Translations under genes and position numbers: made by a program
Shown here: piece by piece, positions 3,249 through 50,491 of the stretch
How the letters are laid out: each line of letters begins with the position of its first letter
Numbering within the stretch: position 1 is the first letter of the stretch
The notes under the pieces: model-generated
Databases searched by the model: none
The model's input: the letters and a program-made list of their open reading frames with translations, nothing else
Told to the model about the DNA's origin: nothing
NCBI RefSeq assembly: GCF_055900595.2
Contig: NZ_CM148325.1
Direction: 5' to 3' (one strand)
DNA length: 64,000 nucleotides

Positions 3249-3274
3249 AAATCTCCATCCAGGTTGCGGAAGAG

Positions 3275-3296
3275 CCACTTTTCATCCGTCGTTGAC
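3275..3296 (+). repeat. 22-bp motif CACTTTTCATCCGTCGTTGACA, copy 2, immediately after a GGTTGCGGAAGAGCC stretch downstream of the ISL3-family transposase
   Basis: Exact identity with 1553..1574. Confidence 0.9.
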
Positions 3297-4083
3297 AGCT
3301 TGGGGGGTAGTGCATCTGTACCTCTAGGTCAAAGGAGGTATTCATATCCATATTAACGACTTGAATATGTTGACAGTACTGATTCAGATTAACGAAAAAC
3401 GACCGAGCTTCTCTACTACGCACCTCACCTATCCAGAGGATTGATGAGTATCCGCATCGGCTACGACGGTGCGTAACGATGAGCTTTGAACAGGGCAAAC
3501 TCTTTCATGACCCGGCCTTGGCAGTACATCAATCAGACCCTGTGACCTCTATTTGCAACTGACGTTTGTCGATAGTATTGATGATATGCTAGTGCAGGGT
3601 AAGAAATTACGAAATATGTTTAATCGGCAAGATTTTGAGTAACGCCTCAACATGCTCAATGAGTCATGTGGTCTGATGAGCATAAGGCTTTAGCCAGCTG
3701 ATATAATCCCGAACTATGCCGTAGTTAGGGCAAAGAATGCGGTAGACGGGTAGGCGTAACTGAACTGGAAATACCAGTATTGTTCATTACGATAAGGTGC
3801 GAAGTGAAGCATCGTGAACGGCTTTAGCCTGTTTGCCACAAGAGTAATGACCGTTTTCAATCGGTTTTAGGTGGATGATGAGGGGGATTTTACTCAGTAG
3901 GGACGACGTCAAAGCCTATCCAGAGATAAATGGAAAAGATAGTATTCGAAATTGAGAACGGTTGGGGTTGGTTATCGTTCTGTTTTAGCAACTAAACAAT
4001 AACTCCCCAACCGTTATCATTTCCAGCCCACGATAATCTGCAATGAACATTAAAAATTCACGGCGGCGGTCGCTTTCCTTAAT

Positions 4084-6623: not shown

Positions 6624-6735
6624 GGAATCTCCTTAACAGGTTAAGCATCGTTTGCGATCATGGAGATCGCCCAGCCCTGAAGGTAAACAACGTTTTCCGC
6701 TACTGTGGGGCTAACTGCGTTAGCCCCGGTTATTG

Positions 6736-8154
6736 TTATTGGCAGTAGTGGTCACGCCAGTTGAGGATCGCCTTTTCAAAACAAGTGAACGGCGGGTGAA
6801 CAATTCCTGCGCCGATCATGCCGATCCCTGCGTCTTTGTGCGCAATGGCTGTGTTAATTACCGGCAGAATGCCTGTACTGCCTACACGCGTAATATCGAT
6901 AGCGGTCGGTACGCCCATAAAACCAAGCAGGGGAATGGTGACGTTGGGGTTTTCTCCGAGAGTGATTTCTCTCATTTTACGTGAGAAATCAATAGCTTCC
7001 TCAACTGTTCCGCCCACCAGTGACACAATAGCTGGTGCCGTCGCCATAGCGAAACCGCCAACGCCGTAGGTTTCGGTAATTGCACTATCACCGATATCAC
7101 GTCCGGAATCCTCTAGCTTATAGCCCGCAAACATCGGCCCAATCACCTGCTGCGCCGGACCGGTAAACCACTTGCCCGGCAAACCGCTAATACGAAGACC
7201 GAACTCAACACCATTGCGTGCCATCGTTGTCACCACGGTGCTGTATTCAATGCCGTGCGCAGCGTCCATTGCGGCTTTACACATTGCCATCCATGTTGGT
7301 CCTGAGAAGTAATCACTACTGAGGACAAACTCGAACACCTCACGCTGCTGCTCAACAGGGTAGCCAGTCTGAATAATCCACGGCGTCAGCGTCTGAATCA
7401 GCAGCGCCGTCCCGGCGTTGTTGCGGTTATGGCACTCATCGCCCATATGCAGCGCCTGCGCTAACATCAAGTGCAGATCGATTTCGCCCGCCAGCTTCAT
7501 AGCATCGCGCAACATAGGTCCCAGTACATCTCGCATCCAGTTAAGACGCTCTATAACGCTCTGGTCGTTAGCGCCCATACGCAGGATCTTTGCCATCTGC
7601 TCGCTCATATTGGTATATGCGCGGTTTCCATAGGTTTTGTTCTCGACGATGTGCATAAACATCGATGCAGACGTGACACCCGCCATTGAGCCGACACAGT
7701 CATGTTCGTGGCACGGAGAGAAGATGATTTCACCTGAAGCAGCTAGTTCGGCGGCATCATCCAGATCTTTCGCCAGTCCTTCAAATACCAGAGCCCCGGT
7801 TACTGCGCCCTTCATTGCGCCGCACATTTTTTCCCAGTGGATTGGCGGCCCGGCGTGAAGGATAGTGTTACGGGTCATACCCGGCACGACGTTGATCGCC
7901 TGATCATAGCCAATTAGCACAGGATGCGACTGGATAATGCGTTCCAGCGCCAGCTGATTAGCAGCTGCAATTTTGTCTGCCAGTGGTGAAGCGGCAATGT
8001 CGTCCAGTGCCGTTACCACTTGTATGTTTCCTTGGCCTGGCGGTGTCCAGTCAAGTTGGGTTACCGGTACATTCTGCTTTTTCATGTCATCGCTGAACAT
8101 TTCGATACCGACATTAATAACGTTCAGCGGCTGATTAAACAGTGTCTGGCTCAT
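6736..8154 (-). CDS. yahG: DUF1116-family protein (yahG/ylbE-type)
   Basis: 472 aa; stop/start coupled with upstream FdrA-like gene at 8154; length and context match yah cluster. Confidence 0.7.
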   Translation of the reverse strand: MSQTLFNQPLNVINVGIEMFSDDMKKQNVPVTQLDWTPPGQGNIQVVTALDDIAASPLADKIAAANQLALERIIQSHPVLIGYDQAINVVPGMTRNTILHAGPPIHWEKMCGAMKGAVTGALVFEGLAKDLDDAAELAASGEIIFSPCHEHDCVGSMAGVTSASMFMHIVENKTYGNRAYTNMSEQMAKILRMGANDQSVIERLNWMRDVLGPMLRDAMKLAGEIDLHLMLAQALHMGDECHNRNNAGTALLIQTLTPWIIQTGYPVEQQREVFEFVLSSDYFSGPTWMAMCKAAMDAAHGIEYSTVVTTMARNGVEFGLRISGLPGKWFTGPAQQVIGPMFAGYKLEDSGRDIGDSAITETYGVGGFAMATAPAIVSLVGGTVEEAIDFSRKMREITLGENPNVTIPLLGFMGVPTAIDITRVGSTGILPVINTAIAHKDAGIGMIGAGIVHPPFTCFEKAILNWRDHYCQ

Positions 8155-9701
8155 CAGCCTTCCTCCCCTTTAAATATAAATTCACGTGCCAGTAATCCGG
8201 TGTTGGTGCTACTGCTTGCCCAAATAACCCCGGCATCGGTCAACATCTGACACTGTTTTTTCAGCGACGGTGTATCAAGGTCGGTTCCCAGCACATAGCC
8301 GAGGATCTCAAGCGGGCGACCGTCTGCGGCAGCAATTTCTTTGGCTTCAACAATTGTATCCAGCATCACTCCAACCGGATCTTCATGTGATCCAAATCCA
8401 AGAATGAAGTCCATCACGATCACGCCAACTTCAGGATCCTGTGCTTCCTGCAAGAGCCGGGTAATGCGATTGGTGGGATCGATCATCGGATGTGGTTTGC
8501 CGTTGGTAAAATAATCATCGCCGAAATCGAGGAAGGTATGCGCCACGCTACGGTTGAGATCTGTAAGGCGGAACGCCGGATTCGGGTGAATATTGCTATA
8601 CACATCCGAGAGTTTTTCCATGGCAGTAAACATCGCTTCATCGCATAACGTGCCACCACAGAACAGGCCACGGATATACTTTTGTTGTGGAGTCAGACGG
8701 GAGCGAACCTCTTCAATCAGCTGCCAGTTGAGCGGATGCAAATCCAGACTCTCTTTTTTCACACCAGTCAACAGTACCGCTTTCAAGGCAGCCTCTTTAG
8801 TACCGCGGGCAAACTGTAGGCCTTCTTCATCCGCAGGGGTGGACTCACGTCCGAGGAAACACACCACCACAGGCTTGTGACAGGTGCGCGCACGTTCCAG
8901 CACCTTACGGGCTACCGCTGGTGCAGGAGGTTTGGATATAAGCGTAATGATCTCAGTTTGTGGATCGGCCTCCAGCATGCTAATCGCGTCAAGCATCATC
9001 AGGCCGCCAATTTTTTCACTCATATCGCGTCCACCTGTCCCAATCAGCTGGGAAATCCCGCCGCCAAATTCGTGAATGCGTACGCTCAGCTCCTGGCTAC
9101 CCGTACCGGAGGCACCAATGATTCCGATGTTGCCGCGACGCACTGCATTGCCAAAACACAACGCTGCGCCGTTAATGATGGCGGTTCCACAATCAGGCCC
9201 CATCATCAACAACCCTTTTTCATGTGCCAGATGCTTGAGTTCCAGCTCGTCCTCAAGAGAGACGTTGTCAGAAAACAGCATAACATTGAGGTTATTTTGT
9301 AGTGCCTGACGAGCTTCACGAGCAGCAAACAGGCCATTGACAGAGATCACCGCCAGATTACTCTCTGGAGCATGCTTCTTCGCACTGGCAATCGTGGCAT
9401 AGCGTGCTTCGTGCTGGCCTCCCTGTTCTTTATGCGCAAACAGCTCATCAATCGCTATTAGCGTCCGCTCGTTCGCCTCCTCGCTGGTACCTTTAATGAC
9501 AATCATCAGATCGCCACTTTTCGCCTCTTCCAGCTCAGGGGTCAGCAGACCGAGATTCTTCAGCACCCCCTTATTCATCTCTGTCGCCATAGCAACAAAT
9601 GCCTGCTCAACTCCATCAAGCTTATTTGCGCGCGTGGAGATAGACATCAGTGAAACAGAATCAAAATACGTGTTTTTTTTTACAACTATCCTGATTGACA
9701 T
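8154..9701 (-). CDS. yahF: FdrA-like acyl-CoA synthetase (NDP-forming)/succinyl-CoA synthetase alpha-like protein (yahF-type)
   Basis: 515 aa, begins MSIRIVVKKNTYFDSVSLMS; CoA-binding/ligase-like glycine-rich motifs. Confidence 0.8.
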   Translation of the reverse strand: MSIRIVVKKNTYFDSVSLMSISTRANKLDGVEQAFVAMATEMNKGVLKNLGLLTPELEEAKSGDLMIVIKGTSEEANERTLIAIDELFAHKEQGGQHEARYATIASAKKHAPESNLAVISVNGLFAAREARQALQNNLNVMLFSDNVSLEDELELKHLAHEKGLLMMGPDCGTAIINGAALCFGNAVRRGNIGIIGASGTGSQELSVRIHEFGGGISQLIGTGGRDMSEKIGGLMMLDAISMLEADPQTEIITLISKPPAPAVARKVLERARTCHKPVVVCFLGRESTPADEEGLQFARGTKEAALKAVLLTGVKKESLDLHPLNWQLIEEVRSRLTPQQKYIRGLFCGGTLCDEAMFTAMEKLSDVYSNIHPNPAFRLTDLNRSVAHTFLDFGDDYFTNGKPHPMIDPTNRITRLLQEAQDPEVGVIVMDFILGFGSHEDPVGVMLDTIVEAKEIAAADGRPLEILGYVLGTDLDTPSLKKQCQMLTDAGVIWASSSTNTGLLAREFIFKGEEG

Positions 9702-35985: not shown

Positions 35986-37725
35986 TTGACTGGAAAATTA
36001 TGTTGCAGGAACGAGAGGGCTGAGGAACAAAGCTTATCCCGGCGCTGTCCGTCCTTGCTGTCACTGACACTGATGTCTGTTTTATTATCGCCTTTATCTC
36101 TTCAGGCAGCGGATGTCCGGCGTAGCGGAGATGAAGCATTTATCATTCAGCAGCAACGTCAGGAAGCCCTTGAGCAACAACTGACGCCTTCGGCCCCTGA
36201 TGTTCGCCTTTCTGCACCTGGCTCTTTTGCCCGTAAGATTAATTTTCCTGTTGAAACGCCCTGTTTTCAGATTAAACAGACAGAACTGGAGGGGGCTGAT
36301 GCGTTACCACACTGGTTGCCTTTACAAAAAATCGCCAACGGGGCGGTCGGGCATTGCATGGGGGCGAAAGGAATTAATCTGCTGATGAGTACATTGCAGA
36401 ACCGTCTGGTCGATCATGGTTATGTCACTACCCGGGTTCTGGCACCTTCGCAGGATTTAAAAAGCGGTATCCTCCGGCTGGTTATTATTCCCGGTGTTGT
36501 GCGGCATGTGCGTCTGACACCGGACAGTGATGACTATATTCAGTTGTATTCCTCATTTCCGGCACACGAAGGCTCTCTGCTGGATTTACGGGACATTGAG
36601 CAGGGGCTTGAGAATATGCAACGACTGCCGGGTGTACAGGCTGATATGGAAATTGTGCCCGGTGAGCAGCCAGGGGAAAGTGACATTCTTATTACCCGCA
36701 AACAGGACAAATACTGGCGACTGGGGTTTTCGCTTGATGATTCAGGTACCCGCAGCACAGGGCGTTATCTCGGTGGTATAACATTTTCTCTGGATAATCC
36801 TTTTTCCCTGAGTGACCTGCTGTATGTTTCTGCCACCCATAATTTTCCACATTACGGGGGTAAGGGTAGTAAAAACTACACGGCCCATTACTCTGTGCCT
36901 TTCGGCTACTGGCAGTTTTCCGTCACCGCCAGTGATTACGATTACCATCAGACGGTAGCTGGTGCGGTTGAGGATTACCAGTACAGTGGCGAGAGTCAGA
37001 ATCTGGGCATGCAGCTGAGCCGGGTACTGCATCGTAACGGGACGCAGAAAACGGTGCTGACCTACGATGTTCAGGCCCGCAGGTCGCGTAACTACATTAA
37101 TGATACGGAAATCCAGGTACAGCGCCGGCAGACGGCGGCATGGCGACTTGGACTGCAGCACCGCCATTATATTTCGCAGGCCACACTGGATGCCGGCGTC
37201 AGCTGGCAACGGGGAACCCGCTGGTCTGGTGCACAACCGGCACCGGAAGAAACGTTCGGTGAGGCAACGGCGCTCAGTAAGATCCTGCAGTTGAATGCAT
37301 CCTTTAATCTGCCCTTTACACTGGCAGGGCAGCCCTTCAGTTATTCCTTCCGGTATCAGCGTCAGCTGAGCAATACCCCGCTGACCCCACAGGAACAGTT
37401 TGCCATCGGTAACCGCTGGACGGTTCGTGGTTTTGACGGGGAACGAACGCTGAATGCCAGTAACGGATGGTATATCCGCAACGACCTGACCTGGCGTACG
37501 CCACTGCCGGAGCAGGAGTTATATCTGGGAATGGATTACGGCGAGGTGGGGGGAGCCGGCAGTGAATACCTTGTGGGACGTCATCTGGCCGGTGGTGTTG
37601 TGGGGCTGAGGGGGCAACTGTTCAGTACGGATTATGACGTTTTCATCGGTCGTCCGTTTTCAAAGCCGGCGGGTTTTATGACGAGTGATGTGACAGCCGG
37701 TTTTAATCTGTTCCGGGATTTCTGA
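35986..37725 (+). CDS. cdiB: Two-partner secretion outer-membrane transporter CdiB (TpsB/FhaC family)
   Basis: Signal peptide then POTRA/ShlB-type regions; alternative start at 36073 ([12 protein letters not shown]). Confidence 0.85.
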
Positions 37726-37734
37726 GAAAGTTTC

Positions 37735-38172
37735 ATGCGTAACGGGAAATATGACGTTCTGAGTCCCCTGTATTCCGGTGAGCCGGTCAATGAGGCGGAA
37801 GTCCTGGGGGCGGCCGTCTGGCTGTGGATGCACTCCCCCCTGCATCGTGATGCGCCACTGCATACCCTGCCGGACCTGCTGCTGCCGGTGATTAAGCACC
37901 GACAGTATGTGGTGGCAACAGAGCAGGGGCGACCGGTTTTCTTCATGAGCCAGGCCTGGCTCAGCCCGGAGGCAGAGGCGCGTTATCTTACGCAGCCGGC
38001 AATTCTCATGCCTCAGTCGGACTGGAACAGCGGCGACCGGATGTGGGTCTGTGACTGGGTTGCCCCTTTTGGACACACTCCGGATATGAGTCGTCTTGTC
38101 CGGCAGGATATTTTTCCCCGTCTGTGCTGGCGTTCGCTGTACCACCGTGGGCAGCAGACCGGGTTACCCTGA
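37735..38172 (+). CDS. cdiC: HlyC/RtxC-family toxin-activating lysine acyltransferase (CdiC-type), C-terminal end replaced
   Basis: AVWLWMHSPLHRDAP and SGDRMWVCDWVAPFG closely parallel HlyC SWLWASSPLHRNWP and SGDRKWFIDWIAPFG; ORF ends inside the cdiA reading region. Confidence 0.75.
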   Translation: MRNGKYDVLSPLYSGEPVNEAEVLGAAVWLWMHSPLHRDAPLHTLPDLLLPVIKHRQYVVATEQGRPVFFMSQAWLSPEAEARYLTQPAILMPQSDWNSGDRMWVCDWVAPFGHTPDMSRLVRQDIFPRLCWRSLYHRGQQTGLP

Positions 38173-41100
38173 CGGCTGACGGACGTATTGAAAACAGTGG
38201 CAGTATCAGTGCGAAAACGGATGTGCATCTGGCGACAACCCGGGAGCTGCATAACAGTGGTTCTGTTTATGCGGGGCAGGATACGCAGATACAGAGTAAT
38301 GGTGTATTCACCCATACAGGCTCTGTGGCATCACGTCGCAACACCCGGATTCAGACAGCGCGTCTGACCGGCGGTGAGCGAAGTCTGCTCACCGCCGGGG
38401 TGAAAGATGACGGACGTCTGGCGGCAGCGGGCAACCTGACTGTCAGTACCACCGGCGAACTGGCGGCACACGGACAGGTTCTGTCCGGTGGGGACATGCA
38501 ACTGAAGGGGCAGGGGCTGGATTTAAGCAACAGCCGGATACAGGGACAACATACTGAGCTGGATGCAACCAGTGGAAATCTGTCCACACAGAATGCGCAA
38601 CTGAGTGCCGGTACGCTTTCCGCCCGGACTGCCGGGCAGTTCAGCAATAATGACGGCACGATAAATGCCGACACACTGCAGATATCAGCACAGAGCCTGT
38701 CAAACCACAGGGGTAAACTGATTCAGACGGGAACAGGGGATTTTTCGCTGAGTCTGCCGGGAAGCGTGGATAACCGGGAAGGGCTGCTTGCGGCAAATGG
38801 CGCGGTGCGTCTGGATGCACTGAGCCTTGATAATCGCAAGGGGAAAGTGCAGGCGGCGCAGTCAGGCAGTCTGCAGGTGAAGACAACCGGTGCCGTGGAT
38901 AACCAGCAGGGACGTCTGCTTGCCAGCAGTGACATCCTGATTAATACACAGGCGCTGAATAACGACAACGGACTGATTTCAGCTGCTGCCGGAACGGGCA
39001 GGATAAAAACACAGCAGTCTGTCAGCAATACGGAGGGACGAATGGAGTCCGCCGGCAGGCTGGATATTTCGGCAGGGAGTCTGAATAACCACCAGGGTAC
39101 GGTGGTGTCTGACGGGCTGTCCGTGACGCTGGATGGTGCGCTGGATAATACGTCCGGCAGACTGCTTTCACAGAAAACGCTGTCTGTGTCAGGCAGCGAA
39201 CTGGTCTCTGATGATGGTCTGATTCAGTCCGGCAGTGACATGACGCTGGATGTACAGGACGGGGTACTTAGTAACCGGAACACGAAAACACGGGGTGGTA
39301 TCAGCAGCGCCGGTACCCTGACAGTGCGGGCTGGTATGCTGAATAACCAGCAGGGATTTATGGTGGGTCAGAAGGATATGACCCTGAACGCCGGAACGCT
39401 TGATAACCGTCAGGGCGTGCTGGGGAGTCAGGCGTCATTACAGATATCGTCAGGTACGCTGATGAATCAGAAAGGTGCACTGAAGGCCGGGACGGATATG
39501 TTGCTGAGTGGTGGCGATGTCAGTAATCAGGAAGGGACGCTTGCCGCCGGCGGGGACCTGAATACTCACCTGAATGTGCTGGAAAATCAGCAGGGGACGG
39601 TGGTCAGCAACGGTAACAGCAGGCTGGATGTCACACGGTTTGATAATCAGGGCGGCAGACTGGTGGCACAGCAGTCACTGACCCTTTCCTCGACGGATAT
39701 CATCAACGATGCCAGCGGCCTGATACAGAGCGGTGCATCGCTGAATCTCCGTGCTGACACGCTGAGCAACCGTAACAGTGGTGACCGGGGCGGGGTTATC
39801 AGTCAGGGGCCGATGACGCTGAATGCCGGCACACTGGACAGCACTGCCGGTGTGCTTTTGTCGGGAGATGCTCTGTCCCTGACTGCAGGCGTGGTTAACA
39901 ATACATCCGGTCAGGTGGTGGCAAACGGTCTGCTCGGCTGGAACAGCCAGGCGCTGAACAATCAGTCAGGTCTTATTCAGGGGAAAGGCATCAGCATTAA
40001 TACCGCAGGCCAGACGCTGGATAACCGTGAGGGTGGCCGGCTGGTCAGTGAAGGTGAACTCCGTCTGCATACGGGAGGCCTGCAGAACAGCCAGGGACAG
40101 ATACAGTCTGTGGGCGACATTCTGTTCGACAGTGTACGGGGCGTTGTGGACAACGTCTCTGGTCTGATCCGCAGTGGTTCTGCCATTACGCTGAACGCCC
40201 TGCAGTTTATCAATCGCCACACGCAGAATACCGGCCAGGGGCTGGAAGCGCAGACAATACACATCACGACGCAGGACCTTGATAACCAGGAGGGCAGTAT
40301 TCTGGCAGACAGGGCGCTTACGGTTATGGCAGACAGGACGCTCAGTAATAATGATGGCGTGCTCTCTTCCGGCGCGACATTGTCTGTCAGTGGCCGTCAG
40401 CTGACGTTTTCGAACCGTGACGGCGTGGTTAAGGCCGGGCAGTCAGTATCTGTGGATGCCGGTCAGCTCGGTGGTGACGGGAAACTGCTTTCGCTGGGCG
40501 ATATGGCGCTGAAAAGTAACACAACGTTCAGTAACAGTGGTCAGACCATTGCGAACGGAAACCTTACGCTTTCCGTTAATGGCGATGTCTCTAATACCGG
40601 CAGCCTGCTGGCAGGCAGCCGGCTTGACCTGAACAGCATCCGCCTTGAAAACACAGAGAAAGGTGAAATCAGTGCCGGGCAGACCTGGCTTAACGTGACG
40701 GACACACTGCTGAACTGTGGGCTGATTGACGGGAAATATACGCATCTTCAGGCGAACACCCTGACGAATTCCGGTACCGGGCGAATCTACGGCGATGCTG
40801 TTGGTGTCAGTGCTGCCACATTTAATAATCTGGAAGAAAATGGCGTGGCGGCGACGCTGGCCGGTGAGAAAGCGAAGCGGGACCCGGCAGCACTGAATCA
40901 GGCCCGCGCAGAGCTTGAGGCAGCAGGAAAGCCGTTTACGGAACAGGATGTGGCACAGCGGGCCTACAATAACGGTATGGCGGCCTCAGGTTTTGGAACG
41001 GGAGGCAAATACCAGCAGGCGATACAGGCCGCAACGGCAGCGGTACAGGGACTGGTCGGCGGTAATCTGAGTGCAGCCCTGGCAGGTGGTGCAGCGCCGT

Positions 41101-42149
41101 ATATTGCTGAAATTATCAAACAGACCACCCCGGATGGTGCGGGACGTGTGGCAGCTCATGCAGTAGTGAATGCAGCCCTGTCTCTGGCACAGGGTAAGAA
41201 TGCTCTTGCTGGTGCCGCAGGCGCTGCCACCGGCGAGGTGGTGGGAATGATAGCCACACAGATGTACGGTAAGCCGGTGAGTGAACTGAGCGAGACAGAG
41301 AAACAGACGGTCTCCACGCTGGCAACGGTTGCTGCCGGTCTGGCCGGTGGTCTGGTGGGAGACTCAGGTGCTTCAGCGGTAGCCGGAGCACAGTCAGGTA
41401 AGACGACGGTTGAAAACAATATGCTGAACGTGATAGCCACTGAAACAGCGGCTAATACGGCAGCAGCAATAGCTGGTGCTACAGGTAATGCCAGTAGGGA
41501 TACCGGGAATGATAATAGCTGGGATATTGGTGGTGGTTGTGAAGGCTCACGGGAACAGTGTGCTGTACGTGACCCGAGTCGCGATGGTACCCGGGGACCG
41601 GGGCATGTGCTGAATGGCGACAATACAGACGAAAACAAACAGCCGAATCTGGGCAAAGACGTAGCGAGCGCTACGGATAAGGATAAAGCTGAGCTTGGTG
41701 GTGCAGGTGCTGGAACACCGGGTGGGTGGGGACCGGATAATGAAGAAAAAGCCCGTCATCAGGAGGTTCAGCAACAACGATTTGATGAACTGAGTAAAAT
41801 ATATGATAAAAGTCACCCGGTCGGAGAGTTAACAGTGGATGGGCAGACTATCAGGCAGAGTTCGGTAAGTAACCGTTATGGTACGACGAAAGTGTTTGAA
41901 AGCCAGAATCTGACGGATAAACAGATCCACAATTACGCACAACAGCTGGCAGGAGATACACCGCTGAAAGAGGTTCGGCCGGGGATCTATACTGCAAAGC
42001 TGAATAACGGAACATCGATCACGTTGCGGAATTTATCGTCGTCCCAAGAACAAACAGGCGCCAGATGGACTATTGATATTAGAGGGAATCAGCAATTGGC
42101 TGAAATTGCACATAAATACGGACGTCAGGTTGAAATTAAATTTAGGTGA
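38124..42149 (+). CDS. cdiA: CdiA contact-dependent inhibition effector, 5'-truncated (no TPS secretion domain), with VENN-delimited C-terminal toxin
   Basis: 1341 aa starting in FHA-type repeats with no signal peptide or TPS domain; pretoxin region ends ...AGAQSGKTTVENN (VENN at 41409..41420); about 240-aa CdiA-CT. Confidence 0.85.
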   Translation: MLAFAVPPWAADRVTLTADGRIENSGSISAKTDVHLATTRELHNSGSVYAGQDTQIQSNGVFTHTGSVASRRNTRIQTARLTGGERSLLTAGVKDDGRLAAAGNLTVSTTGELAAHGQVLSGGDMQLKGQGLDLSNSRIQGQHTELDATSGNLSTQNAQLSAGTLSARTAGQFSNNDGTINADTLQISAQSLSNHRGKLIQTGTGDFSLSLPGSVDNREGLLAANGAVRLDALSLDNRKGKVQAAQSGSLQVKTTGAVDNQQGRLLASSDILINTQALNNDNGLISAAAGTGRIKTQQSVSNTEGRMESAGRLDISAGSLNNHQGTVVSDGLSVTLDGALDNTSGRLLSQKTLSVSGSELVSDDGLIQSGSDMTLDVQDGVLSNRNTKTRGGISSAGTLTVRAGMLNNQQGFMVGQKDMTLNAGTLDNRQGVLGSQASLQISSGTLMNQKGALKAGTDMLLSGGDVSNQEGTLAAGGDLNTHLNVLENQQGTVVSNGNSRLDVTRFDNQGGRLVAQQSLTLSSTDIINDASGLIQSGASLNLRADTLSNRNSGDRGGVISQGPMTLNAGTLDSTAGVLLSGDALSLTAGVVNNTSGQVVANGLLGWNSQALNNQSGLIQGKGISINTAGQTLDNREGGRLVSEGELRLHTGGLQNSQGQIQSVGDILFDSVRGVVDNVSGLIRSGSAITLNALQFINRHTQNTGQGLEAQTIHITTQDLDNQEGSILADRALTVMADRTLSNNDGVLSSGATLSVSGRQLTFSNRDGVVKAGQSVSVDAGQLGGDGKLLSLGDMALKSNTTFSNSGQTIANGNLTLSVNGDVSNTGSLLAGSRLDLNSIRLENTEKGEISAGQTWLNVTDTLLNCGLIDGKYTHLQANTLTNSGTGRIYGDAVGVSAATFNNLEENGVAATLAGEKAKRDPAALNQARAELEAAGKPFTEQDVAQRAYNNGMAASGFGTGGKYQQAIQAATAAVQGLVGGNLSAALAGGAAPYIAEIIKQTTPDGAGRVAAHAVVNAALSLAQGKNALAGAAGAATGEVVGMIATQMYGKPVSELSETEKQTVSTLATVAAGLAGGLVGDSGASAVAGAQSGKTTVENNMLNVIATETAANTAAAIAGATGNASRDTGNDNSWDIGGGCEGSREQCAVRDPSRDGTRGPGHVLNGDNTDENKQPNLGKDVASATDKDKAELGGAGAGTPGGWGPDNEEKARHQEVQQQRFDELSKIYDKSHPVGELTVDGQTIRQSSVSNRYGTTKVFESQNLTDKQIHNYAQQLAGDTPLKEVRPGIYTAKLNNGTSITLRNLSSSQEQTGARWTIDIRGNQQLAEIAHKYGRQVEIKFR

Positions 42150-42505
42150 GCATTATGTTGACTGAAAATGAGTATCGTGAAACAGCTGACGCATCGGAGA
42201 TGCAAGCGTTAAGTGGTTTATGGGCTTACAGTATTCCAGATCATGTTGATAGCGCAGTATTCAGTTTTGATGAAAGGAAAAAACTCTTTTTCTGGATATT
42301 TGAGCGCCTTCTGAAAGAAGGGCGCATCAAACTCGCCAAGCACGGTAAGTTTCTGGAAGGCAGTGTTGACGAGCAGGTTGAGCGTTTCCGACAGGCATTT
42401 CCAAAAACAGAAGAAGAGATGGAAGACGGTATCTGGTTTTTTGATGAGAGCTGTCCGGGAGGAGCTGTCTGGGTGCTTGAAGATGGCTCTCTCGAATGGA
42501 CCTGA
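42146..42505 (+). CDS. cdiI: Putative CdiI immunity protein
   Basis: 119-aa acidic cytoplasmic ORF overlapping the cdiA stop; assignment by position only. Confidence 0.6.
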   Translation: MSIMLTENEYRETADASEMQALSGLWAYSIPDHVDSAVFSFDERKKLFFWIFERLLKEGRIKLAKHGKFLEGSVDEQVERFRQAFPKTEEEMEDGIWFFDESCPGGAVWVLEDGSLEWT

Positions 42506-43050
42506 TAAACCCGTTCATAGTGCAGGATGCGGTGCAGCAAGCGTATAACAACGATATGACAGCCTCAGGTTTTGGAACGGGAGGCAAATACCAGCAGGCG
42601 ATACAGGCCGCAACGGCAGCGGTACAGGGACTGGCCGGCGGTAATCTGAGTGCACCCTGGCAGGTGGTGCAGCGTCGTATATTGCTGAAATAATCAAAAA
42701 TACCCCCCCCGGACTGTGCGGGAAGTGTGGTAGCTCATGCCTTGGTGAATGCCGCACTGGCTGTGGCACAGGGAAATAACGCTCTTGCCGGTGCCGCAGG
42801 GGCTGCCACCGGCGAGGTGGTGGGAATGATAGCCACACAGATGTACGGTAAACCGGTCAGTGAACTGAGCGAGGCAGAGAAGCAGACGGTCTCGACACTG
42901 GCAACGGTTGCTGCCGGTCTGGCCGGTGGTCTGGTGGGAGACTCAGGTGCTTCAGCGGTAGCCGGAGCACAGTCTGGTAAGGCGGGGGGCGAAGGTAGTT
43001 GGTTCGTGAATTGGTTGGAATTCTGTAATATTAATAATAAAAATCGCTAA
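42496..43050 (+). pseudogene. Orphan cdiA-CT fragment (duplicate pretoxin region, toxin domain lost)
   Basis: Near-identical to cdiA pretoxin region (AYNN.M.ASGFGTGGKYQQAIQAATAAVQGL...[15 protein letters not shown]) but split by indels and in-frame stop at 42691; ends ...[17 protein letters not shown] instead of TTVENN. Confidence 0.7.
42703..42710 (+). repeat. C8 homopolymer at a frame-restoring indel in the orphan cdiA-CT
   Basis: TACCCCCCCC where the cdiA paralogue has CAGACCACCCC. Confidence 0.8.
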
Positions 43051-43072
43051 ATGGTTATTCGGGGATACTCGA

Positions 43073-43474
43073 TTGAATAAATTTATATATTTTCTGTTAG
43101 CAGGTATTTTATTTTCGGGACAGGTGGATGCAGCACGGGGAAGAAAACCCTGCTCGGGTGCTAAAGGTGGCATTTCACACTGTACGTCAGACGGACGTTT
43201 TGTCTGTAACGACGGAAGTCTGAGTCAGTCGAAACGCTTTTGTTCCGGTTATGGCGTGGCACCCGGCAAACGTCAGGTGAAATCACCTGTCACCACGAAG
43301 CCGGTTCAGAAGAAAAAATCAGTGGCTGTCCGGAAGGTGCCACAACCGTCGGTGGCTGAGAAAGATGAGTCTGTACCGGTCACTGAGCCGCGTAAACCCA
43401 CCTGTGCGCCGCTTTATATGGCCAGCAAACCCGGATTCACGCATCTGCCTATTTGTTCCGGTAATCAGTATTAA
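43073..43474 (+). CDS. Small secreted cysteine-containing protein of unknown function
   Basis: 133 aa; signal peptide [21 protein letters not shown]; 6 Cys in mature part; lysine-rich linker. Confidence 0.55.
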
Positions 43475-43708
43475 TCTGACACTGAAATAGCAGAGGCATC
43501 TGTGCTCAGCCTGCAGTTAACCCTGTATTGGCGAGCATCATAAAGCCGGACATCCTTCCGGGTATAAATATTTCCGGAGGGCGTTAATCAGAAATATTCA
43601 GTTACGGAGAAGGAAAATAAAGGAAAGTCATGGCAGGAAGAAAAAAAAGATGATAATGCAGCGGGATTTGTCCTGATTTTAGTTTGCGTTATTCTCTGGG
43701 GGATTTAT

Positions 43709-44875
43709 GTGGCGGTCAGGACGCTGATAAACCTTAATGAGCGCTTTATTGATGCAGTATCGAATCCGGCAGGTATTATTGGTTTGTTTTTTGGTTTGCT
43801 TACCGTATTTGCAATTTTATTTCGTTTTTTTATTTACCGGAGACTCAGAAAGAAAACAGCAGCATTTGAGCAGGCCGTTTCAGAGCTGGTTCAGAGAGAA
43901 CGGGATTTTAATGAAACTGTCAATGCCGCTATAGCCCGGGGAATACGACAGGAAAAGGAGCAGCTTGCCAGACGTCGTGAGGAATTTCATACCACCAGAA
44001 AGAAGGCCGGCCGTGCAATGCAGCGGATTGTTGATTCTGCCTGGAAATTTAAGGCGAAGACTCTGCTGGCTGGTGTAACGATTAATAACTGGCAAAGCAA
44101 ATATGACCAGCTTCGTAAGGAAAGAGAGGCTTACGCTGCTGTCAGTGAGAAAATTGCCTTTCTTAACCTGGAAGATAATTCTGACTGGGAGAGTGTCAGG
44201 CAACAGTTTCTGGACAAAGTGGCATTGCTGGAAAAAGCGCAGGAAGAAAAGGAATATCAGGCAGAGCTTAAGCGTCAGATGCGTGAAGAAAAAGAGCGTC
44301 AGGATGAACTTGACCGGCGCCAGCGGGAAGCGGAAGAGGAAGAACGGCGTCTTGCTGAGCAGCAGAAACTGATTGAGGAGGCGCTGCGCGCAGCAGAAGG
44401 GGCTCACAGGGAGGAGTTAGAGAAACAACGCCTGGAGCTGGAACAGAAAATTCAGGAAGCGCATGCGCAGTATGAACGTGCTAAATCCATGGCTCAGCTT
44501 ACGAAACAGGGGCATGTTTATATCATTTCGAATATTGGTTCGTTTGGTGAGGATGTCTTTAAAATTGGCATGACCCGACGGCTGGAACCCATGGACAGGG
44601 TCAAAGAGTTAAGTGGTGCTTCTGTTCCGTTTGATTTTGATGTTCACGCCATGATTTCCTGTGATGATGCGCCCGCGCTGGAAAAAACACTTCATGACAG
44701 TCTGGAAAAATACCGCATCAACAGGATTAACCTGCGTAAAGAATTTTTCCGCGTGAAGCTTGAGAAAATCATTAATGAAGTGGAGCGTCACCACGGGCAG
44801 GTGGAATATGTGGCTGACCCGGCAGCACTGCAGTATCTGCAGAGTCTGGAGTGCGCGGAAAATGAAGCTGCCTGA
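43709..44875 (+). CDS. Membrane-anchored coiled-coil protein with C-terminal T5orf172/GIY-YIG-like domain (DUF4041-type architecture suspected)
   Basis: N-terminal TM helix GIIGLFFGLLTVFAILFRFFIY; long charged coiled coil; C-terminal GHVYIISNIGSFGEDVFKIGMTRRLEPMDRVKELS...FDFDVHAMI typical of T5orf172. Confidence 0.65.
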   Translation: MAVRTLINLNERFIDAVSNPAGIIGLFFGLLTVFAILFRFFIYRRLRKKTAAFEQAVSELVQRERDFNETVNAAIARGIRQEKEQLARRREEFHTTRKKAGRAMQRIVDSAWKFKAKTLLAGVTINNWQSKYDQLRKEREAYAAVSEKIAFLNLEDNSDWESVRQQFLDKVALLEKAQEEKEYQAELKRQMREEKERQDELDRRQREAEEEERRLAEQQKLIEEALRAAEGAHREELEKQRLELEQKIQEAHAQYERAKSMAQLTKQGHVYIISNIGSFGEDVFKIGMTRRLEPMDRVKELSGASVPFDFDVHAMISCDDAPALEKTLHDSLEKYRINRINLRKEFFRVKLEKIINEVERHHGQVEYVADPAALQYLQSLECAENEAA

Positions 44876-45068: not shown

Positions 45069-46856
<1,788 letters not shown>

Positions 46857-47269: not shown

Positions 47270-48643
47270 TTGAATCTGCCGATGACTTCTGAAGTGAAAC
47301 TGAAAACCGGTGGTGACCCCCGGTCATTACCGGATTATGCTGCCCTGCGTGATGAAATCAGCAAACTGACCCACCCGGCACGCCCGGATGTGGACTGGCG
47401 TCATGTGGAGACGCTCTGCCTGCGTCTGTATGAACACAATGGCGTGGAATTACAGACAGCATCCTGGTACACCATCGCCCGGATGCATACAACAGGGTTA
47501 AGTGGCCTGAATGAAGGGCTGGCTCTGATTGTGGCGCTGACCCGGCATCACTGGTCAGTGATGTGGCCGCTGAATACACACGCCCGGCTGGAAATTATTA
47601 CCGGTCTGTTCAACCGTCTGCAAAAAACGCTCCGGGCCATGCCACCGGACGACCGTGACAACCTGCCCCTGCTGTATCAGACCGAAACATTTCTGAAGGC
47701 ACTGAGTGACACACTGGCCCGGCACGAACTTAAACAGAGCAGTAAAGTGGCTTTACCGGAAGCCATGGTGAAGGGATATATCACCCGTCTGGAAAATCAG
47801 CCAGTGCAGGACGAAGCGTCGTCTCCGGTAACCCTTCCTGCTCAGGCACTCCGGTCTGATGCTCCGGATGTACAGGGACATCAGCCCCTGCCGCACTCCC
47901 GTCTGGTGTATGTTGTTTCTGAAACAAAAACAGAGCCCACATCCTCCCTTCAAAACTCCCCGCCCACGTTTCTGAAACCGTTTGTGACTGGTGTCTGTGC
48001 GGCATTGCTGGCGGTCTGCGTGGCCATTCCGGGATGGCAGTATCTGGCACAGCCATCACCGGCAGAGCAGCAACTCAGGGCGCTGCTGACACCACCACCG
48101 GATGTGCTTTCAGCAGACCAGATGACACAGCTCAGCAGAACACCCTCACTGTTAAATCATGCGTCAGAGTGGATAACCCTTTCCGGTCAACAGATAACGC
48201 GACTGACAGAATTACCCCTGGCATACAACCTGCAGTGCAGTGCGCAGCTACTGCAGCAACTGATGGTACTTTTCCCCGACAATCCCCGGGTACAGGAAAT
48301 GGTGGATAACTGGCAGAAGAGCGTAAGGAGTCGTGCGCTCCCGGAAGAGGCGATGACGGGCTGGAATGAAGGCATGACCCGCTTACAGCAGCTGGCTGAA
48401 CGCCTGAACCGTCTGGATGAACAGCGGGGAAAATACATGACGGTCAGTGAACTGAAAACGGAGGTGTTTGGCATCATGCAGGCTTTTAACCGGCACATAC
48501 CGGCAGAAGAGCGGTTACGTCGCTATGATGAAGCCCGTAACCAGAATGGCAGTGAACAGCAACAAAAACAGATGGAAAATGCCCTGATGGAACTGTTGAA
48601 CCGCTACTATTTTTTAACACGGAATAGTTGTGTGGATATATGA
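47270..48643 (+). CDS. ImpA N-terminal domain protein with central TM helix (TssA/VasL-like)
   Basis: N-terminus GGDPRSLPDYAALRDEISKL...DVDWRHVETLCLRLY...LNEGLALIVALTRHHW resembles ImpA_N domain; TM segment FVTGVCAALLAVCVAI. Confidence 0.55.
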   Translation: MNLPMTSEVKLKTGGDPRSLPDYAALRDEISKLTHPARPDVDWRHVETLCLRLYEHNGVELQTASWYTIARMHTTGLSGLNEGLALIVALTRHHWSVMWPLNTHARLEIITGLFNRLQKTLRAMPPDDRDNLPLLYQTETFLKALSDTLARHELKQSSKVALPEAMVKGYITRLENQPVQDEASSPVTLPAQALRSDAPDVQGHQPLPHSRLVYVVSETKTEPTSSLQNSPPTFLKPFVTGVCAALLAVCVAIPGWQYLAQPSPAEQQLRALLTPPPDVLSADQMTQLSRTPSLLNHASEWITLSGQQITRLTELPLAYNLQCSAQLLQQLMVLFPDNPRVQEMVDNWQKSVRSRALPEEAMTGWNEGMTRLQQLAERLNRLDEQRGKYMTVSELKTEVFGIMQAFNRHIPAEERLRRYDEARNQNGSEQQQKQMENALMELLNRYYFLTRNSCVDI

Positions 48644-48784: not shown

Positions 48785-50491
48785 ATGAAGCTTTCATCAT
48801 TTTTTGTGGAAAACTTTAAATGTATCGGTAGAGAGGTACACATTAAAATAGATGATATTATTATTTTAATTGGGCAGAATAATGTAGGAAAATCAACAAT
48901 CCTTGATGCTTATGAGAAATTTGCTGCTCTTGGAAAAGAAAAGGTCTTAGATATTAGCCATTTTCATAATGAAGATGTTTCAAAGCCAGTGATCATGACA
49001 GGAGTATTTACAGATATTACTGTAGAAGATGAAACGGCAATAGGAAAAAAATGGAAGCACAATGATCCAGTTTATGGTGAGTGTATTAAGTTCAGATGGG
49101 TATGGAATGCACCCGGTGAGTCGGCTAAAAAAGAGGCATTTGATCCAACTAAAGGACAAGGTGAATTTGTAGCTGGTGGCTTGGGCGGGTTTGATAGCAT
49201 AATTAAAAGCCGTATTCCTAAGCCACTTCGAATTAAACCTGATGATTCAGTCCTGAAAACACAGGAGCTTATAATCGAAATATTGAAAAGTAATGTGAAG
49301 GAATACCTCAGTAATGGGCCTGATTCCAAGGCTGATGTGATAGCCAAAATTGAATCCCTAACAAGCGCTCTGGTTGAGTCATCTAAAGCAGAATTTGATC
49401 GATTGCTTGGTCGTATAACAGACAATATAGAATCGATTTTTCCAGGGGTTATTATGGAATTGGTTCCTCAGTCGAAAGATCCTATTGATGAGAAGATTAT
49501 CGCTTCAGCATCCTATTTAAAGGTTCGAAACCCGACTAGTCGTTCAACTATGCTTGAACTCCAAGGAACCGGGCTTAAGCGTTCTTTACTGTGGTCTGCA
49601 TTGTCAGTACTTTCGCAAGAAGGAAAAAGCAAAAAAGGTGATGTTGTCAAGGAGTGTAATATCCTGCTTATAGATGAGCCAGAGGCTTTTTTGCATCCAC
49701 CAACAATCCGTGGCGCACGAGAGGCTTTGTATACATTTGCAGCCAATAATCCTGGTTGGCAGGTAATGGCTACCACGCACTCTCCAGTATTCATCGATTT
49801 GTCGAAAGATCATACGACAATTATTCGGGTTGATAAAGATAGCCAGAACAAATACATCTCAACAAACGATATTGGGTTTGATAAGGATGAGAAAGTCAAT
49901 CTTAAAATTGTTCGAGCATGTAATCCAATGGTAAATGAGTTTTTTTTCTATAATAAAATTGTTCTTGTGGAGGGCCCTACTGAAAAAATTGTACTGAATC
50001 ATCTTCAGGATACTCTGGGGATAGAGATGCATGTAATCGATTGTCTTGGTAAAGGTAATATACCTATGTTTGTTAAAATTCTTAATCAGTTCGATGTTCC
50101 TTATGTTGTTATTCATGATTCTGACTCACCTAAAATCCGTCGTAAAGGAAAATATGTGAACAACGGGATGTGGACTATAAATACTTTGATTAGAAATGAA
50201 GTTGCTAAATCAAAAAAAGGACGTATTTTTACTCAGGTGCCGCACTTTGAAGGCGAATTTTTTGGCGAAACTCTTACCTCTGGTAAGGTATCAAATGTGC
50301 TCGAGGTTCTCCAGAACGTTACGGCTGAAGAATACACTCGCTTAATAAGCGTTTATAGCCGTATTTTAAATGACGCAGAAGAATCATTATTTACTGGGAC
50401 ACTTGAGTCTTTTATGGCTAAAATTAATGCATATACGGCAGATAAAACTGCATTAACAGATCCAGAGTTATGGGGATTATCGGGTTTATAA
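48785..50491 (+). CDS. OLD-family ATPase-Toprim nuclease (class 1 OLD-like, stand-alone)
   Basis: 568 aa; Walker A GQNNVGKST; ABC-type ATPase core (LLIDEPEAFLHP); C-terminal Toprim (VLVEGPTEKIVL ... VVIHDSDSP); gene is AT-rich. Confidence 0.8.
   Translation: MKLSSFFVENFKCIGREVHIKIDDIIILIGQNNVGKSTILDAYEKFAALGKEKVLDISHFHNEDVSKPVIMTGVFTDITVEDETAIGKKWKHNDPVYGECIKFRWVWNAPGESAKKEAFDPTKGQGEFVAGGLGGFDSIIKSRIPKPLRIKPDDSVLKTQELIIEILKSNVKEYLSNGPDSKADVIAKIESLTSALVESSKAEFDRLLGRITDNIESIFPGVIMELVPQSKDPIDEKIIASASYLKVRNPTSRSTMLELQGTGLKRSLLWSALSVLSQEGKSKKGDVVKECNILLIDEPEAFLHPPTIRGAREALYTFAANNPGWQVMATTHSPVFIDLSKDHTTIIRVDKDSQNKYISTNDIGFDKDEKVNLKIVRACNPMVNEFFFYNKIVLVEGPTEKIVLNHLQDTLGIEMHVIDCLGKGNIPMFVKILNQFDVPYVVIHDSDSPKIRRKGKYVNNGMWTINTLIRNEVAKSKKGRIFTQVPHFEGEFFGETLTSGKVSNVLEVLQNVTAEEYTRLISVYSRILNDAEESLFTGTLESFMAKINAYTADKTALTDPELWGLSGL

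What the first reader, a model, noticed from the sequence alone, without database searches (positions are those of the whole stretch)
42496..43474. Degenerate orphan cdiA-CT module followed by a secreted Cys-rich protein
A second copy of the pretoxin region is broken by a 1-bp deletion, an in-frame stop and a compensating insertion at a C8 homopolymer. Its toxin-coding end is replaced by a short unrelated tail. The next gene encodes a 133-aa signal-peptide protein with six cysteines and may be an orphan immunity protein for a periplasm-acting toxin. The C8 tract could also be a slipped-strand switch.
Basis: partly seen in the sequence, partly recalled or inferred. Interest (0 to 1): 0.5.

Follow-up and report, generated by a model that had tools for sequence, protein, structure and literature searches.

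The report
Dead cdiA fragment beside T6SS-linked gene
The region is a dead leftover of an E. coli contact-dependent toxin gene, already flagged as a pseudogene in public genomes, and the small secreted protein next to it is not its antidote but a conserved gene that normally sits at the end of a type VI secretion gene cluster.

Summary
Window 42507-42981 is a second copy (about 90-93% identical) of the cdiA pre-toxin region at 40944-41402. It carries a 1-bp deletion (between 42654 and 42655), a TAA in the shifted frame (42691-42693) and a C8 run (42703-42710). A 69-nt unrelated tail replaces VENN, toxin and immunity gene.

The piece is a decayed pre-toxin remnant, not a toxin/immunity module. 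PGAP already annotates it as a frameshifted pseudogene in 23 complete E. coli genomes.

All 23 share the deletion and the stop, but the C run ranges from C6 to C13, and only one other genome has C8. The "compensating insertion" is therefore one state of a drifting homopolymer. The run lies between two dead ORFs, so it switches nothing.

The 133-aa six-cysteine protein belongs to the YdcA family. In E. coli 55989 and in 8 of 9 contigs sampled from other Enterobacterales, it lies between tssE and tagA of a type VI secretion cluster. It is nearly invariant across genera. It is flanking backbone, not an orphan CDI immunity gene.

The window's main cdiA has also lost its secretion domain.

Ordinary overall. 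The T6SS linkage of the YdcA-family gene is the only mildly new lead.

The parts
35986..37725 (+). cdiB (TpsB-type outer-membrane transporter); context
   Evidence: 579-aa ORF. The homologous gene in strain H22 is annotated as a ShlB/FhaC/HecB family protein. Weak BamA-like NCBIfam hit.
37735..38172 (+). cdiC (HlyC-family lysine acyltransferase), 3' end lost to a deletion
   Evidence: Pfam HlyC PF02794, 2.1e-30, model 1-119/127. Collinearity with H22 breaks at window 38165: H22 locus L006 positions 6167-7237 are absent.
38124..42149 (+). Main cdiA remnant: FHA repeats, PT-VENN (41277-41429, VENN 41409-41420) and a C-terminal toxin region with no family match. It has no signal peptide or TPS domain.
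   Evidence: Only Fil_haemagg repeats in the first 999 aa. PT-VENN 5.6e-20. Deletions of 1071 bp and about 3.9 kb relative to H22. No Pfam or PADLOC hit for the C-terminal region.
42146..42505 (+). cdiI, intact (annotated as DUF596 in related genomes)
   Evidence: The homologous gene WP_000954752.1 is annotated 'DUF596 domain-containing protein' in near-identical loci.
42507..42981 (+). Orphan pre-toxin remnant: a second, diverged copy of cdiA 40944-41402
   Evidence: Alignment and BLAST at 89-93% identity. PT-VENN model 1-42/52 on ORF 42727-43047. PGAP label in 23 genomes: 'VENN motif pre-toxin domain-containing protein; frameshifted; incomplete'.
42654..42655 (+). Site of the 1-bp deletion (G missing between these two bases)
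   Evidence: Alignments. Present in all orphan copies examined.
42691..42693 (+). TAA stop in the post-deletion frame, created by att>ata
   Evidence: Sequence and ORF end. Same substitution in every orphan copy aligned.
42703..42710 (+). C8 homopolymer. Length-polymorphic between strains (C6-C13). Lies between the two dead ORFs.
   Evidence: Span lengths of matches in 23 genomes. Nine of them checked by direct alignment.
42982..43050 (+). Unrelated tail ([22 protein letters not shown]) replacing VENN, toxin and cdiI. Contains a G6 run at 42984-42989 that also varies between strains.
   Evidence: Alignments. Query 42976-43072 matches only this junction, in 32 genomes. No homology to T6SS flanks.
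43073..43474 (+). Long-form YdcA-family gene: 133 aa, signal peptide, six Cys. It is T6SS-cluster backbone, not part of the CDI remnant.
   Evidence: Translation. NCBIfam PRK10040 N-terminal hits. PF27300 on all homologues. Synteny.
43629..44875 (+). SNIPE/PD-Lambda-1-type membrane nuclease gene, frameshifted by an A8 run (43640-43647); context
   Evidence: PADLOC PD-Lambda-1 5.5e-89. A8 here versus A7 in intact alleles.
47270..48643 (+). tagA-like T6SS gene (ImpA_N + VasL), intact. Marks the far end of the former T6SS cluster.
   Evidence: Pfam VasL 3.2e-37 and ImpA_N 7e-17.

Best explanation
Window 42496-43050 is a non-functional leftover of an older 3' end of cdiA.

How it formed (inferred): a newer pre-toxin/VENN/toxin/cdiI block (40944-42505, with a DUF596-type cdiI) was recombined into the locus. 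The previous 3' end was pushed downstream of cdiI. A later deletion removed that older copy's VENN, toxin and immunity gene, joining it through a 91-nt filler to the start of the next gene.

How it decayed (shown): the remnant acquired a fixed 1-bp deletion. It also acquired a substitution that makes a stop in the shifted frame. An A>C change turned CCACCCC into a C7 run, which has since slipped freely to C6-C13 in different strains. It makes no toxin, immunity protein or secreted product.

Its only demonstrable activity is as a 0.45-kb direct repeat. Recombination between the main copy and the remnant has deleted cdiA-CT/cdiI at least twice, in strains CE0011b and PS2C.

The adjacent 133-aa protein is a separate, intact, conserved gene. 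It is a periplasmic YdcA-family protein that belongs to the tssE-to-tagA end of an Enterobacterales T6SS cluster. In this strain the core of that cluster has been replaced by the CDI locus. The CDI locus is itself decayed here, because cdiA lacks its signal peptide and TPS domain.
For: Repeat and lesions:
- The repeat, the deletion, the stop and the C run are visible directly in the sequence and alignments.
- The deletion and the stop are identical in every orphan copy aligned.
- The C run differs among the 23 genomes: C6 in 1, C7 in 8, C8 in 1, C9 in 10, C10 in 2, C13 in 1.
- Lengths are uniform within clonal sets (four UTME strains at C7; three 33F4/32F4/33E strains at C9). This argues for heritable variation rather than random read error.
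- The G run in the tail also varies: G6, GGGTGG, GGGAGG and G10.

Truncation and annotation:
- PT-VENN is truncated at model position 42 of 52, so there is no VENN. The main copy matches 1-51 of 52.
- PGAP calls the piece a frameshifted, incomplete pseudogene.

Recombination:
- CE0011b and PS2C each have a single hybrid copy. It is main-like in the 5' part, with no deletion and CCACCCC, and orphan-like in the 3' part with the tail.
- Their crossover points differ, and cdiA-CT/cdiI is missing in both.

The 133-aa protein:
- Homology between the window and E. coli 55989 starts exactly at its start codon. In 55989 the gene follows tssE.
- Eight of nine contigs sampled outside E. coli place it between tssE and tagA.
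- tagA is intact in the window.
- There are 28 invariant and 38 nearly invariant columns in 54 homologues.

The main cdiA:
- It has no TPS domain, cdiC is truncated, and there are deletions relative to H22.

Precedent: cdiA fragments without VENN and without cdiI are described in Poole et al. 2011 (PMC3150448).
Against: - No expression data. The 65-aa and 107-aa ORFs are annotated as real CDSs in strain E62, so peptide products cannot be formally excluded.
- The order of events (insertion first, then deletion) is inferred from comparisons, not observed.
- The origin of the 91-nt tail is unknown.
- Homopolymer lengths in public long-read assemblies can be wrong, so part of the C6-C13 spread could be technical.
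- The function of the YdcA-family protein is unknown. It also persists where the T6SS core is gone (this window; contig L027), so the T6SS linkage may be positional only.
Confidence: 0.85

Rival explanations
1. One reading: an orphan cdiA-CT module whose cognate orphan immunity gene is the downstream secreted Cys-rich protein, protecting against a periplasm-acting toxin.
For: The gene lies immediately downstream of the fragment, 22 nt after its stop, in the position a cdiI would occupy. It is exported and small. Orphan cdiI genes are typically intact and expressed (PMC3150448).
Against: The same gene sits in the same flank (followed by the GIY-YIG nuclease and the NERD/UvrD gene) in genomes with no CDI locus, directly after tssE. 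It is conserved at 58-68% identity across genera, with near-invariant Cys blocks. No toxin domain precedes it in any of the 33 genomes matched around this junction. Homology between the CDI-linked and T6SS-linked alleles begins at its start codon, so it belongs to the flank.
Confidence: 0.04
2. The C run is a slipped-strand (phase-variation) switch that turns a product of the fragment, or the downstream gene, on and off.
For: The run is unstable between strains, from C6 to C13. C8 does restore the ancestral frame in the window.
Against: The run lies after the fixed stop at 42691-42693 and before the GTG at 42727, so its length changes neither present-day ORF. Only 1 of 23 genomes, plus the window, has the frame-restoring length. 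There is no toxin, secretion domain or credible Shine-Dalgarno to regulate. No promoter-like site involves the run, and the ydcA-like start is about 360 nt away.
Confidence: 0.04
3. The indels are sequencing or assembly errors, and the fragment is really an intact in-frame pre-toxin ORF.
For: Homopolymers are error-prone, and the C-run length in this window cannot be checked without reads.
Against: The 1-bp deletion is not in a long homopolymer. It is identical, together with the att>ata stop, in 23 independent assemblies. Even an error-free frame would end without VENN or toxin.
Confidence: 0.02
4. The remnant is kept because it is useful as a recombination cassette. It would be a homology arm that lets the cell delete or exchange its toxin/immunity pair.
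For: Two independent deletion derivatives with different crossover points exist: CE0011b and PS2C. Poole et al. proposed recombination at conserved pre-VENN sequence as a way to reload CdiA.
Against: The outcome here is loss of toxin and immunity, not reloading, because nothing functional lies downstream of the remnant. The cdiA genes involved lack an N-terminal secretion domain in the window. The drifting homopolymers indicate no selection on the sequence.
Confidence: 0.1

Closest known systems
Orphan cdiA-CT/cdiI modules downstream of cdiBAI (Poole et al. 2011, PLoS Genet, PMC3150448)
   Same: [quoted passage not shown] It lacks translation-initiation signals. It is a direct repeat of the main gene's pre-toxin region.
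   Different: It has no VENN, no toxin domain and no cdiI, and it carries a fixed frameshift and stop. [quoted passage not shown]
E. coli K-12 YdcA (57-aa exported protein of unknown function; NCBIfam PRK10040, Pfam PF27300)
   Same: The N-terminal four-Cys domain CSGxKGGIxHCTxxGxFVCNDGSxSxSKxxC is shared (NCBIfam NF007462, E 7.7e-22 over residues 1-58).
   Different: The window protein is the 132-133-aa long form. It has a variable Lys/Thr/Ser-rich linker and a second invariant block ([25 protein letters not shown]). Its scores are below the equivalog cut-offs (77 versus 118 bits). The long form is syntenic with T6SS genes. The K-12 context of the short form is from memory only and was not tested here.
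Legionella pneumophila Dis2 (Lpg0823), outer-membrane-cap subunit of the Dot/Icm T4SS (PDB 7MUC; Sheedlo et al. 2021, PMC8486379)
   Same: Both are small exported, disulfide-pinned proteins encoded in or used by an envelope-spanning secretion machine. Both lobes of Dis2 match the YdcA motif (C..GGI.YC.S.GR.VCN.G..S).
   Different: The similarity is marginal (E 2.4e-4 with the signal peptide, 7.6e-3 without) and short. No structural confirmation was possible (AF2 model mean pLDDT 56). Dis2 is reported as dispensable and species-specific. No evidence shows that the YdcA-like protein binds a T6SS.
Homopolymer contingency loci (slipped-strand phase variation)
   Same: A poly-C run whose length differs between closely related strains.
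   Different: No functional reading frame or promoter depends on the run. This is neutral slippage in a pseudogene.

Membership tests
Orphan cdiA-CT/cdiI module | Located downstream of a cdiB-cdiA-cdiI cluster | tested here: met
   cdiB 35986-37725, cdiA remnant 38124-42149 and cdiI 42146-42505. The fragment starts at 42507.
Orphan cdiA-CT/cdiI module | Retains cdiA sequence homologous to the region upstream of VENN | tested here: met
   89-93% nucleotide identity to 40944-41402. PT-VENN Pfam hit 8.6e-15.
Orphan cdiA-CT/cdiI module | Encodes the VENN motif that marks the start of the CT | tested here: not met
   Homology ends about 42981, before the VENN codons. The Pfam match stops at model position 42 of 52.
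Orphan cdiA-CT/cdiI module | Encodes a C-terminal toxin domain | tested here: not met
   Only a 22-residue unrelated tail follows.
Orphan cdiA-CT/cdiI module | Followed by a cognate cdiI immunity gene | tested here: not met
   The next gene is a conserved YdcA-family gene. It is found in the same flank next to tssE in genomes without CDI.
CDI/T6SS immunity protein (the 133-aa protein) | Encoded immediately next to its cognate toxin or effector | tested here: not met
   No toxin domain is adjacent in the window or in 10 other contexts. Its neighbours are tssE or a 156-aa protein upstream, and T5orf172 or tagA downstream.
CDI/T6SS immunity protein (the 133-aa protein) | Polymorphic, strain-specific sequence that co-varies with the toxin | tested here: not met
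   28 invariant and 38 nearly invariant columns across 54 homologues from many genera. Only the linker varies.
CDI/T6SS immunity protein (the 133-aa protein) | Neutralises a specific toxin | not testable with these tools
   Needs co-expression or competition assays.
YdcA family (PF27300 / NCBIfam PRK10040) | Signal peptide followed by the four-Cys CSGxKGGIxHC...VCNDG...C domain | tested here: met
   NF007462 E 7.7e-22 over residues 1-58 of the protein and positions 1-56 of 57 of the model, though below the equivalog cut-off. All 120 listed homologues carry precomputed PF27300. PGAP names it 'YdcA family protein'. The local Pfam-A copy lacks this family and gave no hit.
Phase-variable contingency locus (C run) | Repeat length varies among closely related strains | tested here: met
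   C6, C7, C8, C9, C10 and C13 in 23 genomes.
Phase-variable contingency locus (C run) | The repeat lies inside the ORF or promoter of a functional gene, so that length toggles expression | tested here: not met
   The run (42703-42710) lies between stop 42693 and GTG 42727 of a fragment that has no start, no secretion domain and no toxin. No promoter-like site is nearby.
Dis2-like secretion-machine subunit | Significant sequence or structural similarity to Dis2 lobes | tested here: inconclusive
   Profile versus PDB gives E 2.4e-4 (full length) and 7.6e-3 (mature domain). The motif matches both lobes. The AF2 model was too poor for a fold search.

The most novel reading that the evidence does not exclude
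The long-form (about 132 aa) YdcA-family protein would be an unrecognised accessory component of the Enterobacterales T6SS cluster, encoded between tssE and tagA. It would be a small disulfide-pinned periplasmic protein built from the same Cys motif as the lobes of Legionella Dis2, an outer-membrane-cap subunit of the Dot/Icm T4SS. On this reading it acts at the envelope-spanning part of the machine rather than as an immunity protein. The CDI remnant next to it would then simply mark where a CDI locus overwrote the T6SS core.
Probability: 0.2. Interest if true: 0.55.

Novelty: already known. Interest (0 to 1): 0.22.

Why it matters
The finding itself matters little. It is a textbook decayed cdiA fragment that public annotation already labels as a pseudogene. 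It has no toxin, immunity or switching function.

It is useful in three modest ways:
- It shows step by step how CDI loci erode. The sequence of events is displacement, truncation, frameshift, homopolymer drift, and then repeat-mediated loss of the active toxin/immunity pair in sister strains.
- It corrects a tempting mis-annotation, namely that a small secreted protein after a toxin fragment must be an immunity protein.
- It points to a conserved, uncharacterised periplasmic protein that travels with T6SS clusters across Enterobacterales. Deletion and localisation experiments in T6SS-1-positive strains could test this cheaply.

Tried and rejected
- Origin of the 91-nt tail. A sensitive BLAST of 42976-43072 against 5,426 E. 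coli genomes found it only at this junction, in 32 genomes, plus one weak partial hit. Short-word BLAST against the T6SS flanks of 55989, Citrobacter, Pantoea and Enterobacter gave nothing. The tail is also not the C-terminus of the 156-aa gene that precedes ydcA-like elsewhere. The origin is unresolved.
- Pfam-A on the 133-aa protein gave no hit, because the local library lacks PF27300. PADLOC also gave no hit.
- AlphaFold2 with a 54-sequence alignment gave mean pLDDT 55.9 and pTM 0.29. Only residues about 30-60 were moderately confident. No fold search was run, because it would be meaningless.
- The promoter/terminator scan of 42100-43750 found nothing convincing upstream of the ydcA-like gene or involving the C run. 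Counts were near the shuffle expectation.
- Toxin identity of the main CdiA-CT: no Pfam or PADLOC family beyond PT-VENN.
- Literature: no paper in the held library links YdcA to type VI secretion or gives it a function.
- I considered whether the single-copy form (CE0011b) was ancestral. I rejected this because its 5' half is main-type and its 3' end orphan-type, with a crossover that differs from the one in PS2C. That pattern is the signature of recombination between two pre-existing copies.

Full report
**What is at the coordinates**

The window is E. coli chromosome. Related complete genomes match at 97-99.6%.

Downstream of asrABC lies a CDI locus with these parts:
- cdiB, 35986-37725.
- A truncated HlyC-family cdiC, 37735-38172.
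- A 1341-codon cdiA ORF, 38124-42149. It contains only haemagglutinin repeats, a PT-VENN domain (VENN at 41409-41420) and a C-terminal region with no family match.
- An intact cdiI, 42146-42505, annotated DUF596 in sister genomes.

Immediately after cdiI, 42507-42981 repeats cdiA 40944-41402 at about 90-93% identity.
- One G is missing between 42654 and 42655.
- An att>ata change gives TAA at 42691-42693 in the shifted frame, ending ORF 42496-42693.
- A C8 run at 42703-42710 (main copy CCACCCC) returns to the ancestral frame, in which ORF 42727-43050 lies.
- Homology stops at about 42981, before VENN. An unrelated 69-nt tail then ends at TAA 43048-43050.

Pfam sees PT-VENN model positions 1-42 of 52 in the orphan ORF. 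The main copy matches 1-51 of 52. ORF 43073-43474 encodes the 133-aa, six-Cys, signal-peptide protein.

**The lesions are real, but the 'compensation' is accidental**

Twenty-three complete E. coli genomes carry this orphan allele. PGAP labels it 'VENN motif pre-toxin domain-containing protein; frameshifted; incomplete'.

Direct alignment of eleven orphan copies, including the window, shows the same 1-bp deletion and the same ata codon in all of them.

The C run differs among the 23 genomes:

| Run length | Genomes |
|---|---|
| C6 | FCI54 |
| C7 | eight genomes |
| C8 | NCTC9022 only (besides the window) |
| C9 | ten genomes |
| C10 | two genomes |
| C13 | A2 |

- Nine of these lengths were verified by alignment. 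The rest are inferred from match spans.
- Lengths are uniform within clonal sets, so the variation is probably heritable. Homopolymer error in some assemblies cannot be excluded.
- C7 (ACC CCC CCG, Thr-Pro-Pro) is the length collinear with the main gene. An A>C change created the run, and it has slipped since.
- The G run in the tail drifts in the same way: G6, GGGTGG, GGGAGG and G10.

The C run lies in the 33-nt gap between the fixed stop (42693) and the GTG of the next ORF (42727). Its length therefore alters neither present-day ORF. Strain E62, which has C7, has the same two ORFs annotated. This is drift in a dead sequence, not a switch.

**How the fragment arose and what it does**

The orphan's first 50 nt are much more diverged from the main copy than the rest, so it comes from a different cdiA allele. 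I infer the usual CDI history:
- A new pre-toxin/toxin/cdiI block recombined into cdiA.
- The old 3' end was displaced.
- A deletion then removed the old VENN, toxin and cdiI.

The 91-nt filler between the breakpoint and the next gene occurs only at this junction, and its origin is unknown. Fragments without VENN and without cdiI are already described (PMC3150448).

The remnant's one visible effect is as a direct repeat.
- Strains CE0011b and PS2C have a single hybrid copy and no cdiA-CT/cdiI. The hybrid is main-type in the 5' part, with no deletion and CCACCCC, and orphan-type in the 3' part with the tail.
- Their crossover points differ, so these are two independent deletions.

The window's 'main' cdiA is also dead as a delivery protein. 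Relative to strain H22, a 1071-bp deletion removes the end of cdiC and about 300 N-terminal codons of cdiA, which include the signal peptide and TPS domain. A further roughly 3.9 kb of repeats is also missing.

**The secreted Cys-rich protein is not an orphan immunity gene**

It is a YdcA-family protein:
- NCBIfam PRK10040 models match residues 1-58, below their equivalog cut-offs.
- All 120 listed homologues carry PF27300.
- PGAP names it 'YdcA family protein'.

Synteny in E. coli:
- A second E. coli allele group, about 91-92% identical, is homologous from exactly the start codon onward.
- In E. coli 55989 the gene follows tssE of an intact T6SS cluster. The same GIY-YIG nuclease and NERD/UvrD genes follow it there as in the window.

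Synteny outside E. coli:
- Eight of nine sampled contigs place the 131-133-aa gene at the 3' end of a T6SS cluster. These are Citrobacter, Pantoea, Enterobacter, Yersinia, Serratia, Klebsiella, Winslowiella and one unnamed contig.
- The order is tssF-tssG-tssJ-tssE-(156-aa gene)-ydcA-like-(T5orf172)-(NERD/UvrD)-tagA.
- One contig keeps ydcA-like plus the two defence-type genes without any T6SS gene.

In the window, tagA (ImpA_N + VasL) is intact at 47270-48643. The ydcA-like gene therefore belongs to the remains of a T6SS cluster whose core was replaced by the CDI locus.

The protein has two almost invariant blocks, joined by a variable basic linker:
- [41 protein letters not shown]
- [25 protein letters not shown]

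Conserved position, conserved sequence and no adjacent toxin are the opposite of what defines an immunity gene.

**What the YdcA-like protein might do**

Its function is unknown. I found no literature linking YdcA to T6SS.

The only solved relative is Legionella Dis2 (Lpg0823). Dis2 is a two-lobed, five-disulfide subunit of the Dot/Icm outer-membrane cap (PMC8486379).
- Both Dis2 lobes match the YdcA Cys motif.
- The match is weak: E 2.4e-4, or 7.6e-3 without the signal peptide.
- The AlphaFold model was too poor to test this.

I treat an envelope-associated T6SS accessory role as a lead with about 20% probability, not as a finding.

**Verdict**

The feature is a known kind of pseudogene remnant, already annotated as such, lying beside an unrelated conserved gene. 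Interest is low.

The by-products are listed separately: the T6SS-linked long-form YdcA family, the recurrent repeat-mediated loss of cdiA-CT/cdiI, and a 5' A7/A8 frameshift in the neighbouring SNIPE/PD-Lambda-1 homologue.

Noticed in passing
window 43629-44875 (A run 43640-43647): The gene after ydcA-like is a strong homologue of the anti-phage membrane nuclease PD-Lambda-1/SNIPE (PADLOC 5.5e-89; bioRxiv 10.1101/2025.11.03.685801). In the window it is frameshifted four codons after its ATG by an A8 run. Intact alleles have A7. In a spread sample of 60 of 140 E. coli genomes, 11 showed the A8-length span, most showed A7, and a few were shorter or longer. This is a more plausible slipped-strand on/off site than the C8 run, but A8 may instead be a single inherited mutation.
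   Followed up: partly
window 37735-42149: The 'main' cdiA of the window lacks its signal peptide and TPS secretion domain. A 1071-bp deletion relative to strain H22 fuses truncated cdiC (HlyC family) to the FHA repeats, and about 3.9 kb of repeats is also missing. cdiI stays intact. The whole CDI locus therefore looks decayed, apart from immunity.
   Followed up: partly
L005 (CE0011b) 8917-9558; L002 (PS2C) 8933-9574: Two strains carry a single hybrid pre-toxin copy with different crossover points and no cdiA-CT/cdiI. These are two independent deletions by recombination between the main and orphan copies. In CE0011b this leaves a 2166-aa haemagglutinin-repeat ORF ending in the 22-residue tail.
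   Followed up: partly
window 43073-43474; loci L007, L018-L028: The long-form YdcA-family gene is syntenic with the tssE-tagA end of T6SS clusters in at least eight genera. The T5orf172/PD-Lambda-1 and NERD/UvrD genes are variably inserted between it and tagA. Minimal arrangement: tssE-ydcA-like-tagA (L028). One contig (L027) has ydcA-like plus the two defence-type genes without any T6SS gene.
   Followed up: partly
window 43133-43240 (protein residues 21-56): The YdcA Cys motif weakly matches both lobes of Legionella Dis2/Lpg0823, a disulfide-pinned outer-membrane-cap subunit of the Dot/Icm T4SS (PDB 7MUC). E is 2.4e-4 for the full-length profile and 7.6e-3 for the mature domain.
   Followed up: partly
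window 45069-46856 and 48785-50491: There are further defence-type genes in the same island. One is a NERD+UvrD helicase matching the PADLOC candidate C3a187 (2.5e-139). The other is a 568-aa ATPase-like ORF with weak retron-effector, PtuA and MADS3 similarities. Related genomes carry a KAP NTPase here instead.
   Followed up: no
L017 (strain C5) 2980-3588: A different, in-frame orphan pre-toxin allele (C5 run...[17 protein letters not shown]...) is directly followed by a frameshifted tssE pseudogene. This is another sign that CDI orphan arrays and the T6SS cluster have recombined at this island.
   Followed up: no
window 30813-31718: An IS3-family transposase ORF sits on the minus strand between asrC (29162-30301) and asrA (32754-33809), in the region where asrB lies in strain H22.
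   Followed up: no
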